DNA from: Candidatus Woesearchaeota archaeon
Lineage (GTDB): Archaea; Nanobdellota; Nanobdellia; Woesearchaeales; B72-G16
Assembly (NCBI GenBank): GCA_003650545.1
Contig: QMQO01000001.1
Coordinates: 68,845-105,539 of the forward strand
Length of the DNA: 36,695 nt
Direction of reading: 5' to 3'
The position numbers are program-made. Shown here in pieces: positions 1 to 15,000 of this stretch. Position 1 is the first letter of the stretch; each line of letters starts with the position of its first letter.

Positions 1-3000
1 AGGTGAAATTCAGGGCTCAATTTTTTTAGAAAAAGATTACTGATCTTAGATTGAATTACTGAATTTTAGATTCTGATTTTAGATTGTTTTAGATTGAATA
101 TGTTATTTTTTTGTTATGATTTTTCATTAGTTTGAGTTTGATGATTTTCTGATGATTTTTCTCTAAACAATTTTTTTTAATTTGCATTTCTTTAATTTGT
201 TTTTCTTATTTTTAATATTTTATCTTTGATGTTTTATAGTGCATTTTTAAAATTTTAAATAAGAATAAAGAATAATAAATCTATTCTGAAGATTTAATCT
301 GATGTTTTGAAATGTACTGATGTTTTGAAATGTAATAAATGTTTTTCATTTTTGCTTAAAATGTTTAGCTTTTTACACATACAATTTTCTTAGCATTTTT
401 GCATTTTTTGTTTATTTTTTTCTTTTTTTTAAACTTGTTTTTTCAAAAATAAAATACCGACAAAAGTTTTCATTATACCAATTCTATTTTCTAATTATGC
501 TTACTTTATTCGGTAGTTCTGTGTTGTAATTATGCAGATTTATGTCGTCATTTTTCAGATATTCATTGGCTTTATTTTTATCATATTTTTATTTAAATAG
601 GAAAAAAGTCTATAGAAAAAGTGAGTTTTTGATTTTTATTTTTATTGGTTATAACTTGTATGACTTGTAACTTAAAATAAGATGAGTGTGCTAAAAATAA
701 GTAATCTAAGCTGAAATATTTTTAGCTATAAATCGAACAGACTTAAAAATGATAGGTTGTTGAAAATAGAATAAACTTTTGTGTTAGGCACTATTTAATT
801 TACTATTGAAGAAGAAATTTTATTTGATTTTATCGACGAGAAAAGTTTTATCTTGTTTTTTATAGTTTTATATGTTTCTTTATAGTTTTATTCATTATTT
901 GCATCCATAAACCTTTATGCTTTTTCTTGCGACTGTGTAGCGGTTTTTGTCTTCAACAATAACTCTTAAATAGCTGTTTTTTGGAATAGCGGCTTTAGTA
1001 TTACAAGTGAACTCATCATCTGCTGTCTGTTCCAGAAGTTTTGGGCAAATCTCTTGATTAACATAAACATTAACCTTTTCTGGGATCTGGCTACAGTCTC
1101 CTTCACGATTGATCTTTATGGTTATCTTGCTATTAATAGGTAAGGGTGTTTTTTGTTTTTCAGGGCAATCATTAACTTCAGGCTCGATGATCTGGATACA
1201 ATGTTCAAGTGATGTATATTCTTCGCCTTTGAATTCTGCAATAATAGCTCCTGGTTCGCAGACTTCGGCAAAATCTGCATCAACAACAGGAGCAACAGCA
1301 CTTGGTGTGCTATCTGTGGTGTAGTATAAATCAGCATGTACTTCGCCTTTTCCAATCGAGAATATGTTTTGGAGGAATGTTTTCATGTCTTCATTATCCT
1401 TATAGTCACTTATATCTGTAGAGCATCTTACTTTAATATTTTCTAGATTGTCAATTGAGATTTTATTTTTATATTCATTTTCTTTTTTGCAAATAAGTTT
1501 TCTGTCTTTGTTATTTATGTAGATATCTATATATGCATTATTCGCTTCACGTGCTCCACAATCATTTGCTACAATCACTTTAATATCTTCACCTTTACAT
1601 AGTGGCTTGCTTGCAACATCGCTTCTTGAAACAGGTTCTATTATTTCTAGCTTGGCGTTGTGTTTACAGATATTGAAGTCTTTAGGGATCATGGCATCGT
1701 ACACTGGCTCGAGCGTAAGTACGAGTTCATTTCCCTCAGAATCTCTCAGCACTTCTGCGCTCTCACCAGTATAATCTTGAATATTTGGATCAGCGTCGTT
1801 GTTCTTGTCGTTGAATAATGTTAACTCTAGCTTGTATCTGCCTGTTTTGAAATCAGGTATGATTTTTTCAGGAGTCTTCTCAAGAATATAGCTAACTTCG
1901 TCATCAACTTTAGCATAGACTGATAATGGTTTAACACTGGGCCGAGTTAAATATATGTTTATATAGCTATTACTAACATCGGAATCATCAGCATCACACT
2001 CTACAGCATATTCATCATCTTTAGTCTGCTGACACTCTATTGTCTGTCTTTGGCCATTTTTAAATAACACCCATTCAGCAGTTATATGATAATATTGGAC
2101 TTGTGTAGTAGAGGCCTCACTACCAATTTCTTCAGTCTGTGTTAATCTTCTATCTGCTACAATAAAAGATATCTTGTGAGGTTGATTATTTTCTATTTTA
2201 GAGATGATTTGAGAGATGTCTATTGGGCCTATTCTGAATTTTTCTTCTTCTTCTTTAAGATTGCTAAATGGTCCGTTTTCACCAAATTCAATAGCCTTGA
2301 TCTCTCTTGGTTTGTCTGGAGTAAGTGTCATAAAGTTACTAATTGTGCCGCGCTTTTTTTCAGTTCCATCAGGATCTTTCAACACCCATTGAACAGATAT
2401 GGGGATTGGCTTTTCAGCATCAGTAGATTCAAGATCGAACTTGACAAACAGAGGACTTCCAGGATAGTATCTCTTGTTTTGAGGCACTAACATTATTTTG
2501 TGCTTTGTAACAGAACCAAAGAATGCTTCAGGCATCAGGCTCTGGCATTTTATCCCAGGTGGAACAATGCTGAAACTACACATATACCCAAGGCCGCCCA
2601 TAAGCTTTATGTTTTCAATCTTTGGCTTGTCATTGCCAGGCTTTGTGAATGAGCCATGGATCTTGTAAGTGTCACCTAGTTGGTATTCATATTCTAGTAT
2701 AACCTTGTTGAACCAATCACCTGTATCAATATTATAATGCATTGTCTTTGTTACCTGGCTCATTGCAGGGATTGTGTATTGTTCTATAAGTAAAGGTTGT
2801 TGTTGGGGTTTACAGCTTTCCTTGTGTTCACCACTTAAAGGATCACACACTAACCAGAGTCTATAGGTTACATCAGTGCTGCCAGAGATTATACCAAGAC
2901 TGATTGTGTAGTCAATACTCAGCTTGTTTGTGAATGGGTTATAGTAGCCTGCTCTTGCCTTTGGCATCATAGGACCTATTATTGGCGGTGTTGGTACAGT

Positions 3001-12000: not shown

Positions 12001-15000
12001 TGCGTATAACGTTTCAGGTCCTTGGTGATTGCTCTATATGCGGGGAGATCAACACCCATTGCAAGACTGGGGGTACACGCAATGATCTTTAGTTCACCAG
12101 ATCTGAATGCTTCTTCTATAATATCGCGTTGTTTTGCGGTGAGACCAGCATGATGGAATGCTGTACCTTTTTTGACACATTTTGCGAGACGCAAGCATTG
12201 CTTTGTTGGTTTACTTATTGCTTTTAATATCCCATCTGCAAGTTTTGTTAATTTTGTGTTGGTTGTTTTGATATGTTTGGCAATGTCCTCTGCTGTTTTC
12301 TCTGCTGATCTTTTAGTGTTCACAAAGATTAAAGCTTGCTTTTGCTTATTAATCGTATCAATAGCTATATTAATTACAGGATAATCTGTTGGCTGAGCAA
12401 TTTTCATTTGAGAATCAAATTTCAATCTTTTCTTTTGTAGGTTGTTCTAACGCTGCTCTGGCTTTGGTTATTGTTATATCTCCGAAATGCTTTAGTTGTT
12501 CTATGTTAATTTTTCTACTGTTAGCCAGATGCAACAACGATATGAATGTGTATATAACATCTGCTTTCTTTTTTGAAGGCAGGATTTGAGAGAATTTAAC
12601 CTGCTCAGTCTCCTTAAACATACTTTCTATTTTACTATAGACCTTTTCGATTAACTTGCTTATATCTATCTTTTTCTTCGGTACTTCAACCTTACGGAAT
12701 GTATCTGGTTTGAATGGCCTTCTATGTTTTACTTCGAGAGCTTTATCTAATGCCTTAACCAAGTCAAAGATTGATACTTTTCTTCTTCTAGGCTGTGGTG
12801 TTCTTGGAACAAGTTTAACACCAGTATCCTGGCTTGGATATTTCATCGCTCTATACTCTTGTTGCAGTTCTTCATAAAACTCGTCTGTTTCTGGTGATGT
12901 AAGTAATTGATCAAGCGCGTTTATGTCGTCCTTCAATAGTTTTCTTGACTTTATTCTAAGAAGAATTGCAGATGCAAAGATGAGTTTGGCTGGCAGGTTT
13001 AGATTTAGCTCTTTCATTGCTTTAATCGTCTCCAAAAAACGAGCAGATAGCTTTGATACGTCTATATCCCAAGGATCCATCTCTTCGCTCTTTATTGCAT
13101 TATATAGAATGGACTTCCATGTGATCTCTTCTTCACTCATCAATAAATTGTATATGCGATCTTGAATTTCTTTTTTTGACATAAGTTCATTGTTTTTCTT
13201 TAATATATAAATATTTGTAGTTTTATGGTGTTGAAATGTGAAATTCTTATATGAAATTTAATTGTTGTATGGAAAAATTTATAAATAATCTATATTTTAA
13301 GGTTGTGAGAAAAGAGAGGTTAGAGTATGCAGAGATATGTGCGATTTGGGATGTTGATTTTGTTAATATTAATTTTATCTTCATTATCGTATGCTGCATC
13401 AACTGCTAACACAACCACGAATATTTACATTCTTAATTCTGCTCCAAACATAACTTCTATTAGTGATTCTCCAGACCCTGTTGAGATAACTACACAGACA
13501 ATGACTTTTACAGCAAATATTACTGATAACAATGGTGTTCCTCAAGATATAGCTTCAGTTGTTGTTGAGCTTAACAATGGGACAGGATCAACAACAGACG
13601 ATATTAATTTAACAATGACATATAATGAAGGCTCAGGTTTATATAAAAATACAACTTATTTTGTGCCTCATTCAGGAACATTGGGGGCTTGGAGTTACAT
13701 TATTTACGCAACCGATAATACAGGAGCTGTTGATAGCCTGTCTGGCGCATTCACAGTACAGGATACGCTTAGACCAAATGTAACAAATGTGTTACCATCT
13801 AAAAATATAACTCTTATAGATGATTCAAATGTTAGCATCAATGCAACAGTAACAGATAATGGAATTATCAGTTCAGTGATTGTTGAGGTGACTCAACCAA
13901 ACAACTTTAAAGAAAATGTAACTGCTACTTATCTTGGAAATAATGTATATGGTTATACTTATACGAATACAACACAAGACGGTTATTATAATGCGACTTT
14001 CTATGTGTATGATACAGCAAATAATCTGAATAATTCCGGCTACACATACTTTATAGTGGGAGATATTATATCACCTTCAATTGGACAACCAGTTAGTACG
14101 CCACAAGCTGTTGACCCTGGTAATTCGCTCAATATAACAGTAAATGTTACTGATAATATTGCTGTGGATACTGTCTTGGTTGAGATACAAAATATTAACT
14201 ATACAATGAATGATGGTCCTGGTAATTTATACTATTATGATCAACATGATACATCTGTTCCTAATGCAGGAACATATGTTTATACTGTGTATGCAAATGA
14301 TACTTCCCAAAACTGGGGAACGCCACAGACAGGAAACTTCACGATTAATCCGTTGGTGTCGATCACAATAACCCAAATACCAATTGACTTTGGTAATGTA
14401 ACAGTGCCTGCAACAAACAGACGCGCAGATAATGGTACGGCAGGTAGTGGGTACTCAGGAGGAACGATCAAAGGGTTCCCAATGATTGCTAACAACACTG
14501 GAAATGTACAAGAGAACTTTAGCATTTCAGGAACTGACTTGTATGGTTTAACTAATTCATCTTATACAATCACTGTTAGCAATATTAAGTATGACACTGA
14601 CAATAACATAACAGGCGCCAGTTCATTATCAGGAACACCAACTAGGTATGCTGGAAATGTTATCCGATTTAACATCCAGAATGTATACTTTTGGATAACA
14701 GTGCCTACAGGAATACCGAGCCAGGCATACCAAGGTAATGTAACTGTTTCAGCACAACAATCGTAAAATGATTTTTATGCCAAAAAATACAAAATAGAAT
14801 TTGCTGATTTTTGGTGTCTCGAAATCCGCATGGCGGATCTTTAGGATTTTTAAACTTGAGGTGGGGCAATGAAAAAAATATTCTTTTTTTTGATTTTTTT
14901 TTTAGTTATGATGTCTGCTTTTGTTGTTGCTAGAACAGGTATCGCTGTTGCACCAGGTTGTTATAAAGTTGGTGTCAATGGTAATTGTGTTAGGGATTAC

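What a model noticed while it worked through the whole genome (the two positions that open the first line are those of the whole stretch)
1..12407. Hel308-type helicase is split between its two RecA domains into two unlinked genes, an order-wide trait
The Ski2/Hel308-family helicase is encoded by two genes on opposite strands 13.5 kb apart: g00068 (C1:65392-66057,+; 221 aa; motor domain 1 with the ATP site) and g00077 (C1:79530-81251,-; 573 aa; motor domain 2, winged helix, domain 4). Both are whole ORFs inside a 105-kb contig. The same split is found across Woesearchaeales, so the enzyme must assemble from two polypeptides.
Evidence so far: Pfam and Swiss-Prot rows: the halves match residues 8-211 and 229-698 of P. 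horikoshii Hel308. Six-frame search of 60 other Woesearchaeales genomes with g00068: 53 have an orthologue (51-70% id, E<=6e-66), always in an open frame of only 197-335 aa; weaker hits (36-42% id) in 630-680-aa frames are an unsplit paralogue. With g00077: 16 of 20 genomes match, frames 442-574 aa. In a closed genome (G016) the halves lie 38 kb apart on opposite strands. The finding spans contig positions 65392 to 81251; this window holds only 68845 to 81251 of it.
(Added by a program. Inside this text positions count along the whole contig: contig position 68,845 is position 1 of the stretch shown here. "Call 12" and the like, gene names such as g00115 and contig names such as C1 are that model's own, and its searches are not shown. 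The text may have been shortened before it was handed on; [...] marks where a part breaks off. The agent that wrote the report below was given it as the finding of a first reader that could run no searches.)

Follow-up and report, generated by a model that had tools for sequence, protein, structure and literature searches.

The report
Hel308 helicase encoded as two genes
In this tiny sediment archaeon and almost its whole order, the DNA-repair helicase Hel308 is encoded by two distant genes cut cleanly between its two motor domains, so the motor most likely has to be assembled from two proteins.

Summary
Window 10686-12407 (-) encodes a 573-aa protein that matches residues 229-686 of Pyrococcus Hjm/Hel308: RecA2, winged helix, ratchet domain and HhH. 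A 221-aa gene lies 13.5 kb away on the other strand, outside the window, and matches residues 8-214 (RecA1).

Across one genome for each of 121 families of the order, 110 have the short N-half gene (frames 197-350 aa) and 113 have the C-half gene. After profile searches, 108 have both. The cut point does not vary. Ten same-contig pairs lie 13.5-332 kb apart and none is adjacent.

In other orders of the same class, 58 of the 69 orthologues sit in single frames of 600 aa or more. Trees are consistent with one origin of the split.

All ATPase motifs are invariant in both halves, and there is no intein or extra sequence at the cut. A two-subunit helicase is the best reading, but assembly remains inferred: the complex predictor was unavailable and no RNA runs were found.

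My literature searches found no description of this split. The scan has already noted it on other genomes (e1-982222, e1-1173016, e1-3387813).

The parts
10686..12407 (-). Gene for the C-terminal subunit of the split Hel308 (573 aa: RecA2, winged helix, ratchet domain, HhH)
   Evidence: Translation. Pfam. Match to 2zj2 residues 229-686. NCBIfam NF002654 positions 224-714 of 739. AF2 model has mean pLDDT 82.3, and its best fold matches are Hjm/Hel308.
11898..12407 (-). RecA2 motor domain (aa 1 to about 170) with motifs IV, V and VI. Invariant residues include T112, G118 and Q149..G152-R153-A154-G155-R156.
   Evidence: PF00271 at aa 20-157. Invariant columns in 27 aligned C-halves.
11640..11888 (-). 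Winged-helix domain 3 (aa 174-256)
   Evidence: PF20470 HTH_61, E 4.7e-6, 27.3 bits against a cut-off of 24.3. Aligned to 2zj2 up to residue 475.
11439..11624 (-). Lineage-specific low-complexity insert (aa 262-323, NNNSD-type repeats) between domains 3 and 4, predicted to be disordered
   Evidence: 15-nt tandem repeat of 6.7 copies at 11499-11598. pLDDT below 50 for aa 273-321. 62 aa here against 0-11 aa in 23 of 26 other C-halves.
10938..11312 (-). Ratchet domain 4 (aa 366-490)
   Evidence: PF21280 Helicase_dom4_arc, E 3.3e-31, covering profile positions 2-125 of 125.
10773..10919 (-). Helix-hairpin-helix domain 5 (aa 497-545)
   Evidence: PF14520 HHH_5, E 5.3e-5, 24 bits, below the curated cut-off of 27. 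Aligned to 2zj2 up to residue 686.
12415..13182 (-). ScpA (kleisin) gene that ends 7 nt before the C-half start codon. Co-transcription is probable in this genome, but the neighbourhood is not conserved.
   Evidence: PF02616, E 1.8e-17. Sequence of the junction. No ScpA match in the other 29 C-half loci, each with 1.5-kb flanks.

Best explanation
The single Hel308/Hjm gene of the ancestor of this order (Woesearchaeales, by the names public sources give the closest proteins) was cut in the short linker between RecA1 and RecA2, and the two pieces became independent, unlinked genes.

The 221-aa N-subunit carries the Q motif and motifs I, Ia, II (DEIH) and III. These bind ATP and Mg. The 573-aa C-subunit carries motifs IV, V and VI, including the arginine fingers, plus the winged helix, the ratchet domain and the HhH domain. 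These grip and ratchet the DNA.

Inferred: the two proteins dock non-covalently to rebuild the five-domain ring known from solved Hel308 structures. ATP would then be hydrolysed at an interface formed in trans, and the complex would act as a 3'-5' DNA helicase at stalled forks, as ordinary Hel308 does.

Shown here: the gene structure, the fixed cut point, the order-wide conservation, the intact motifs and the lack of any joining element. Not shown: binding, activity and expression.
For: 1. Both genes are intact, and together they cover Hjm residues 8-214 and 229-686 with no overlap. NCBIfam NF002654 positions are 1-218 and 224-714 of 739.

2. Order-wide sample of 121 genomes, one per family. 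The N-half is present at E<=1.3e-54 in 110, always in frames of 197-350 aa. The C-half is present at E<=1.1e-45 in 113. Profile searches then found contig-edge fragments in G037, G062 and G084. That gives both halves in 108 of 121.

3. The cut point is fixed. The 34 aligned N-halves are 219-233 aa and all end ...WRPV + 14-27 aa. The 27 aligned C-halves start 1-39 aa (median 23) before the KQ of motif IV. The summed medians come to 39 aa, against 39-45 aa between the same motifs in 9 unsplit relatives.

4. The halves are never linked. None of 36 N-half loci holds a C-half within 1.5 kb, and none of 29 C-half loci holds an N-half. Ten same-contig pairs lie 13.5-332 kb apart.

5. Sister orders keep one gene. 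All 18 fetched long-frame loci have single frames of 687-757 aa. Of 69 orthologue hits in other orders, 58 lie in frames of 600 aa or more.

6. The data are consistent with one origin. In the N-region tree the 34 split rows form one side of a branch with SH-aLRT 98. For the C-region, the tree with the 27 split rows held together is 33.4 lnL better than the tree the free search found, p-AU 0.935.

7. Purifying selection acts on residues that only work across the interface. Walker A, DExH and SAT are invariant in the N-halves. Motif V and QxxGRAGR are invariant in C-halves, which have no P-loop of their own.

8. Each half folds confidently on its own. The N-half model has pLDDT 89.3 and TMq 0.85 to 2zj2. 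The C-half model has pLDDT 82.3 and its best matches are Hjm/Hel308.

9. All four one-contig genomes in the sample (G016, G025, G085, G097) have both halves.

10. Precedent: Nanoarchaeota keep other split genes, including reverse gyrase and the Lhr helicase (Table 1 of PMC3655853, passages read).
Against: No direct evidence of binding, activity or expression was obtained.

Co-occurrence is not perfect. Three genomes have only the N-half: G010 (97% complete), G024 (78%) and G096 (100%, about 20 contigs). Seven have only the C-half: G019 (96%), G048 (82%), G053 (98%), G058 (63%), G103 (91%), G106 (100%, about 20 contigs) and G117 (87%). This held even with profile queries. These may be assembly gaps. 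They could also mean that one half can persist, and perhaps work, without the other.

No conserved operon or neighbourhood links the halves.

In the AF2 model of the C-half alone, the domains are not arranged as in the crystal structures: pTM 0.59, TMq about 0.5, rmsd 8-9 A. The model therefore says nothing about a preformed docking site.

Hel308 was not found in 63 of 132 genomes of other orders of the class, so the enzyme may be dispensable in these lineages.
Confidence: 0.8

Rival explanations
1. After the split the halves took separate jobs. For example, the C-half could act as an ATP-independent DNA-binding or fork-recognition factor, and the N-half as a free ATPase or a partner of another protein. 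They would not form one enzyme.
For: Ten of 121 genomes show only one half even with profile queries, two of them rated 100% complete. The genes are unlinked and share no conserved neighbours.
Against: Motif VI arginines and motif V are invariant in a protein that has no nucleotide-binding loop. Motifs I, II and III are invariant in a protein that has no DNA-ratchet domain. Both halves are present in 108 of 121 genomes and in all four one-contig genomes. Three genomes lack both halves, against 0.5 expected from the margins (Fisher one-sided p 0.007). That test is confounded by completeness and kinship.
Confidence: 0.12
2. The halves are joined after transcription or translation into one chain, by a split intein or by RNA trans-splicing.
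For: Inteins do occur in this gene family. A 512-aa LAGLIDADG intein sits inside the C-half of G072, and a 507-aa one sits inside the unsplit gene of G160. tRNA halves are trans-spliced in N. equitans (PMC3491384, passages read).
Against: There is no room for intein fragments. The N-halves end 14-27 aa after WRPV, and the C-halves start a median of 23 aa before motif IV. Together that equals the normal linker length. Pfam finds no intein domain in either protein. Each gene has its own start and stop codon. No Rfam family or tRNA-like element lies in the 18 kb that holds both genes.
Confidence: 0.03
3. It is an artefact or decay: an assembly error, a frameshifted pseudogene, or a chimeric bin.
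For: The genome is a metagenome assembly of 133 contigs, 85% complete and 3.9% contaminated.
Against: The same cut is seen in 110 independently assembled genomes, including one-contig genomes. The genes lie 13.5 kb apart on opposite strands inside one 105-kb contig. The catalytic motifs are invariant. The public protein collection holds 4,451 proteins of 121-387 aa at E<=1e-20.
Confidence: 0.01

Closest known systems
Archaeal Hel308/Hjm (solved structures 2zj2/2zj5/2zj8, 2p6r/2p6u, 2va8, 9b15)
   Same: The two halves together carry all five domains and every SF2 motif, with about 48% (N-half) and 32% (C-half) identity in the fold alignments. The best NCBIfam hits are the Hel308-type equivalog models.
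   Different: The known enzymes are single chains of about 700-720 aa. Here the chain is cut in the RecA1-RecA2 linker, the two genes are unlinked, and the ATP site would have to form between two polypeptides. This genome also adds a 62-aa disordered repeat insert between domains 3 and 4.
Naturally split protein genes of Nanoarchaeota (reverse gyrase, Lhr 'large helicase-related protein', alanyl-tRNA synthetase and others)
   Same: These are also unlinked half-genes, each with its own start and stop, with split sites shared among relatives, and intact in other archaea. They are interpreted as products of genome reduction that need assembly after translation (PMC3655853 Table 1 and discussion, passages read; PMC6349945).
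   Different: Hel308 is not on those lists. This split is in another order, Woesearchaeales, and is fixed across more than 100 families. That is far wider than the two-genome comparisons in that paper.
Two-gene Hel308-like helicases of large phages
   Same: A Hel308-type motor is encoded as two separately translated proteins, and the arrangement is conserved.
   Different: By those notes, which I did not check, the phage cut is inside RecA2 at motif V and the halves stay adjacent. Here the cut lies between the RecA domains and the halves are unlinked.
DSHCT-type Ski2/Mtr4-like helicase of Woesearchaeales (about 630-760-aa frames)
   Same: It has an SF2 Ski2-like core and is 36-44% identical to the N-half over about 170 aa.
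   Different: It carries a DSHCT C-terminal domain and has no Hel308 domain 4. It is unsplit and was not found in this genome. It is a different subfamily, not a spare Hel308.

Membership tests
Hel308/Hjm (Ski2-like SF2 DNA helicase) | RecA1 domain with Q motif, motif I (GKT), motif II (DExH) and motif III (SAT) | tested here: met
   In the N-half: PF00270 at 1.9e-34. Q29, P48-T54, D146-E147-x-H149 and S180-A181-T182 are invariant in 34 orthologues.
Hel308/Hjm (Ski2-like SF2 DNA helicase) | RecA2 domain with motifs IV, V and VI (QxxGRAGR) | tested here: met
   In the C-half: PF00271. Q149, G152-R153-A154-G155-R156, T112 and G118 are invariant in 27 orthologues.
Hel308/Hjm (Ski2-like SF2 DNA helicase) | Winged-helix domain 3 followed by the helical ratchet domain 4 | tested here: met
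   PF20470 scores 27.3 bits against a cut-off of 24.3. PF21280 scores 108.2 bits against a cut-off of 27, over its full length.
Hel308/Hjm (Ski2-like SF2 DNA helicase) | C-terminal HhH domain 5 | tested here: inconclusive
   PF14520 scores 24 bits, below its cut-off of 27. The region does align to 2zj2 up to residue 686 and is modelled as helices with pLDDT around 90.
Hel308/Hjm (Ski2-like SF2 DNA helicase) | All domains on one polypeptide of about 700 aa | tested here: not met
   Two genes of 221 and 573 codons lie 13.5 kb apart on opposite strands. No second copy is in the genome.
Hel308/Hjm (Ski2-like SF2 DNA helicase) | Score above the curated NCBIfam equivalog cut-off (NF002654, 887 bits) | tested here: not met
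   The halves score 290.3 and 428.4 bits. An unsplit sister-order protein also falls below the cut-off, at 731.9 bits, so the cut-off is strict for this whole class.
Hel308/Hjm (Ski2-like SF2 DNA helicase) | DNA-stimulated ATPase and 3'-5' DNA unwinding | not testable with these tools
   This needs purified subunits.
Naturally split (two-gene) proteins of DPANN/Nanoarchaeota | Two complete ORFs that together cover one protein which is a single gene in other archaea, with a split site shared by relatives | tested here: met
Split-intein (trans-splicing) proteins | Intein N- and C-fragments at the broken ends | tested here: not met
   No extra residues at the ends. No intein domain in either half.

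The most novel reading that the evidence does not exclude
The Hel308 ring is a modular machine that tolerates being cut at more than one seam, and in Woesearchaeales the cut has become a control point.

On this reading, the small RecA1 subunit is a detachable ATP module that docks only on the DNA-bound C-subunit, so helicase activity is gated by assembly or by subunit dosage and not by the autoinhibitory contacts of the one-chain enzyme.

Support for the 'several seams' part: two genomes of other families in the same class (G212, G238) carry an independent cut directly after motif VI (..GRAGRP stop | M..K[Y/F]GEAI). In G212 the two genes lie 26 kb apart.

The ten genomes with only one half would fit a detachable or exchangeable module. 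They would equally fit assembly gaps.
Probability: 0.15. Interest if true: 0.75.

Novelty: new variant of a known kind. Interest (0 to 1): 0.55.

Why it matters
SF2 helicases hydrolyse ATP in the cleft between RecA1 and RecA2. A natural enzyme kept for the whole history of a large archaeal order with these two domains on separate proteins would be a ready-made system for three questions:
- how much the covalent linker matters for coupling ATP hydrolysis to translocation;
- how the accessory domains hold the motor together;
- whether split genes in reduced DPANN genomes are neutral accidents or are used for control.

There is also a practical point. Both halves are named only 'DEAD/DEAH box helicase' or 'ATP-dependent DNA helicase' in public records. 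Surveys that drop partial hits miss them: PMC10946056 required 60% coverage of the COG profile and removed 53 sequences that were partial, had partly conserved motifs or lacked sub-family motifs (passage read). Woesearchaeales can therefore be wrongly scored as lacking Hel308, or as having a broken one.

Tried and rejected
Binding is therefore untested.

Expression. The look-up of sequencing runs listed no RNA holder. It listed only one DNA run, which may be the source sample.

Conserved neighbours:
- ScpA upstream of the C-half is seen in this genome only, with none in the other 29 C-half loci.
- FtsY lies convergent downstream of the N-half in 15 of 37 loci. It is not within 3 kb of the unsplit gene in 14 sister-order loci. 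So synteny does not say which half stayed in place.

C/D-box sRNA or other RNA genes beside the halves, as reported next to split genes of N. equitans (PMC3491384): no Rfam match at E<=0.1 and no tRNA in the 18 kb. Rfam may not cover such sRNAs.

An unsplit Hel308 copy in this genome: none found. The only other hits are an Lhr-type helicase on C40 and a weak hit on C129.

Literature. Six searches and passages read in six papers gave no description of a split Hel308. Subscription-only papers and supplementary tables were not seen. Table S1 of PMC10946056 might list such partial sequences.

dN/dS was not attempted, because the sampled families are too divergent (49-70% aa identity).
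Full report
WHAT IS THERE

Window 10686-12407 (-) is an intact 573-codon gene. Pfam finds Helicase_C (aa 20-157), HTH_61 winged helix (174-256), the archaeal helicase domain 4 (366-490, E 3.3e-31, full-length match) and a sub-threshold HhH (497-545). It finds no DEAD/RecA1 domain.

The best solved relative is the Pyrococcus helicase Hjm, 2zj2 (720 aa). 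Residues 14-261 of the protein align to Hjm 229-475, and residues 324-536 align to 475-686.

The missing front part is a separate 221-codon gene at G000:C1:65392-66057 (+). That is 13,473 nt away on the opposite strand, on the same 105,539-nt contig, and 3.4 kb outside the window. It is a DEAD-type RecA1 domain (PF00270, 1.9e-34) and aligns to Hjm 8-214.

NCBIfam puts the two proteins on positions 1-218 and 224-714 of the 739-position model NF002654. The whole genome (1.64 Mb, 133 contigs, 85% complete) has no other Hel308 copy. The only other hits are an Lhr-type helicase on C40 and a weak hit on C129.

The window is ordinary chromosome. It holds aEF-2, aEF-1alpha, adenylate kinase, NDK and CDP-archaeol synthase.

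THE INSERT

It is 62 aa here, against 0-11 aa in 23 of the 26 other aligned C-halves and 22-31 aa in the other three. It is made by a 15-nt in-frame tandem repeat of 6.7 copies at window 11499-11598. In the AF2 model it has pLDDT below 50 for aa 273-321. It sits between domains 3 and 4 and looks like a disordered repeat expansion private to this lineage.

HOW WIDE IS THE SPLIT

I searched one genome from each of 121 families of the same order, G000 included.

- N-half: 110 of 121 have an orthologue at E<=1.3e-54 and 49-70% identity, always in an open frame of 197-350 aa.
- C-half: 113 of 121 match at E<=1.1e-45, typically in frames of about 500-575 aa.
- The longer C-half frames have explanations where I looked. 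G072 (1056 aa) holds a 512-aa LAGLIDADG intein. G056 (769 aa) is only a long open stretch upstream. G055 (636 aa) and G058 (616 aa) are also longer: the G055 protein aligns with the other C-halves, and G058 was not examined.
- Profile searches in the genomes that lacked a half recovered contig-edge fragments in G037 (N-half) and in G062 and G084 (C-half).

Final tally:
- Both halves: 108 of 121.
- N-half only: G010, G024, G096.
- C-half only: G019, G048, G053, G058, G103, G106, G117.
- Neither: G006, G054, G111.

Two of the one-half genomes are rated 100% complete (G096 and G106, about 20 contigs each). I cannot tell assembly gaps from true loss. All four one-contig genomes in the sample (G016, G025, G085, G097) have both halves. 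The counts include one unpublished genome (G112); no sequence from it was used.

The names that public sources give the closest proteins are 'DEAD/DEAH box helicase' or 'ATP-dependent DNA helicase' of Candidatus Woesearchaeota or Nanoarchaeota. The public collection holds 4,451 proteins of 121-387 aa at E<=1e-20.

THE CUT POINT

- The 34 aligned N-halves are 219-233 aa long and all end 14-27 aa (median 16) after the invariant WRPV.
- The 27 aligned C-halves begin 1-39 aa (median 23) before the KQ of motif IV.
- In 9 unsplit relatives the two motifs are 39-45 aa apart (median 42), against 39 for the summed medians.

Only about three linker residues are missing, and nothing has been added. This leaves no room for split-intein fragments, and Pfam finds none.

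THE HALVES ARE UNLINKED

None of the 36 N-half loci (1.5-kb flanks) contains a C-half, and none of the 29 C-half loci contains an N-half. In the ten genomes where both lie on one contig they are 13.5-332 kb apart, on the same or opposite strands.

THE SPLIT IS SPECIFIC TO THE ORDER

In a class-wide sample of 151 genomes, 132 were from other orders. Of those, 69 have an orthologue-level match to the N-half, and 58 of the 69 lie in open frames of 600 aa or more.

I fetched 18 of the long-frame loci. All 18 have one frame of 687-757 aa that matches both halves contiguously.

The 11 shorter frames:
- G147 and G152 are cut by contig ends.
- G217 has a run of N.
- G198 aligns over its full length.
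- G193, G179, G159, G127 and G214 lie at contig starts. I judged this from coordinates only and did not fetch them.
- G212 and G238 carry a different split (see below).

So I found no genome outside the order with the RecA1|RecA2 cut.

TREES

In a tree of the N-region (34 split rows and 16 unsplit rows) the split rows form one side of a branch with SH-aLRT 98. Rows left out: L012 and L066 (no start codon found), L027 (odd 60-aa tail), L072, L082 and L085.

In the C-region tree (27 split and 16 unsplit rows) the free search put the unsplit G210 protein in a polytomy with the split rows. The tree with the split rows held together is 33.4 log-likelihood units better, with p-AU 0.935.

One ancient cut near the base of the order is the simplest history.

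IS IT FUNCTIONAL

Mean column identity is 71% across 34 N-halves and 51% across 27 C-halves from different families. Invariant residues:
- N-half: Q motif (Q29), motif I (P48-T49-x-S51-G52-K53-T54), motif II (D146-E147-x-H149) and motif III (S180-A181-T182).
- C-half: motif V residues and motif VI (Q149..G152-R153-A154-G155-R156).

From established knowledge of SF2 helicases (recalled, not tested here), the motif VI arginines contact the phosphates of the ATP that RecA1 holds. A protein with invariant motif VI and no P-loop makes sense only if it meets a RecA1 domain in trans. The only Hel308-type RecA1 in these genomes is the N-half.

Each half folds confidently alone. The N-half model has pLDDT 89.3 and TMq 0.85 to 2zj2 over all 221 columns. 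The C-half model has pLDDT 82.3 and its top nine matches are all Hjm/Hel308 chains. The domain arrangement of the C-half model differs from the crystals (pTM 0.59, rmsd 8-9 A), which tells us nothing about docking.

The presence of a homing-type intein inside the C-half of G072, at the same site as in the unsplit gene of G160, is also what one expects of an expressed, needed gene.

MECHANISM

Inferred: the two proteins assemble into a heterodimer that rebuilds the Hel308 ring. In the solved one-chain enzymes, as I recall the descriptions of 2p6r and 2va8, domains 3 and 4 pack against the RecA domains around the 3' tail. That gives the C-subunit a large surface to hold RecA1 without the linker.

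Shown: gene structure, conservation, motifs and the absence of a joining element. Not shown: binding, stoichiometry, activity and expression.

The weaker hits in 630-760-aa frames are not an unsplit Hel308 paralogue. A representative (G019, 645 aa) has DEAD, Helicase_C and a DSHCT domain and lacks domain 4. It is a Ski2/Mtr4-like helicase of another subfamily. It was not found in this genome.

COMPARISON WITH THE LITERATURE

Split protein genes are a known trait of Nanoarchaeota. Table 1 of PMC3655853 lists reverse gyrase, Lhr ('large helicase-related protein', split at different sites in two genomes), alanyl-tRNA synthetase and others. The authors argue that random fragmentation during genome reduction is kept when the pieces can reconstitute in trans (passages read). 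A DPANN review names reverse gyrase, tRNA synthetases and Dph1/2 (PMC6349945).

Hel308 is not mentioned as split in any passage I read. The 2024 survey of archaeal Ski2-like helicases required 60% COG coverage and discarded 53 partial or motif-incomplete sequences, and it does not contain the word Woesearchae (PMC10946056). My six searches found no description.

This scan has already reported the same split from other genomes (notes e1-982222, e1-1173016 and e1-3387813). I re-tested the claim independently here.

VERDICT

This is a real, ancient, order-wide split of a core repair helicase between its two motor domains. It is a new variant of a known kind (DPANN split genes; Hel308). It is of moderate interest, and the key step, assembly, remains to be shown at the bench.

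Noticed in passing
L140:1504-2685 (-) with L143:1462-2559 (+) in G212 (contig C4, 26 kb apart); L141:213-1373 (-) with L142:556-1635 (+) in G238: Two genomes of other families in the same class carry a second, different Hel308 split. A 387-394-aa frame (RecA1+RecA2) ends exactly at ..GRAGRP after motif VI. A separate 360-366-aa frame starts M..K(Y/F)GEAI and encodes domains 3-5. A genome of the same genus as G238 (G201) has an unsplit 731-aa frame, so this split may be recent or transferred.
   Followed up: partly
L132:1068-2603 (+) in G072; L133:1317-2837 (+) in G160: LAGLIDADG inteins of 512 and 507 aa (Intein_splicing plus LAGLIDADG_3) are inserted at the same place in RecA2, one in a split C-half and one in an unsplit sister-order Hel308. 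The 1246-aa frame in G204 probably holds another.
   Followed up: partly
class-wide sample: No Hel308 orthologue was found in 63 of 132 genomes of other orders of the class. This includes every sampled member of the families coded f138 and f144 (genomes of 0.4-0.9 Mb). The enzyme seems to have been lost repeatedly in the smallest genomes.
   Followed up: no
window 895-6057 (-) and 5963-7972 (-): There is a 1720-aa ORF with only weak Ig-like matches (Big_13, Glucodextran_B) and an overlapping 669-aa ORF with no Pfam match. They are probably large surface proteins. They lie inside the finding's coordinates but are unrelated to the helicase.
   Followed up: no
window 12415-13182 (-): The ScpA (kleisin) gene ends 7 nt before the C-half start codon, which suggests one transcript in this genome. 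This pairing is absent from the other 29 C-half loci.
   Followed up: yes
L009:1346-2635 (-) and 14 other N-half loci: An FtsY/SRP-receptor gene lies convergent, directly downstream of the N-half, in 15 of 37 loci, but not in this genome. It is not near the unsplit gene in 14 sister-order loci.
   Followed up: yes
window 31580-32581 (+), with 20505-21164 (+): A GpsA-type NAD-dependent glycerol-3-phosphate dehydrogenase (the bacterial type by Pfam family) is encoded in the same window as a CDP-archaeol synthase.
   Followed up: no
L027:1303-2154 (-) in G115: This N-half orthologue is 284 aa. It has a tail of about 60 aa after the usual end that the other 34 N-halves lack.
   Followed up: no
L094:1489-3426 (+) in G019 and many other genomes of the order: A DSHCT-bearing Ski2/Mtr4-like helicase of about 645 aa is widespread in the order but was not found in this 85%-complete genome.
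   Followed up: partly
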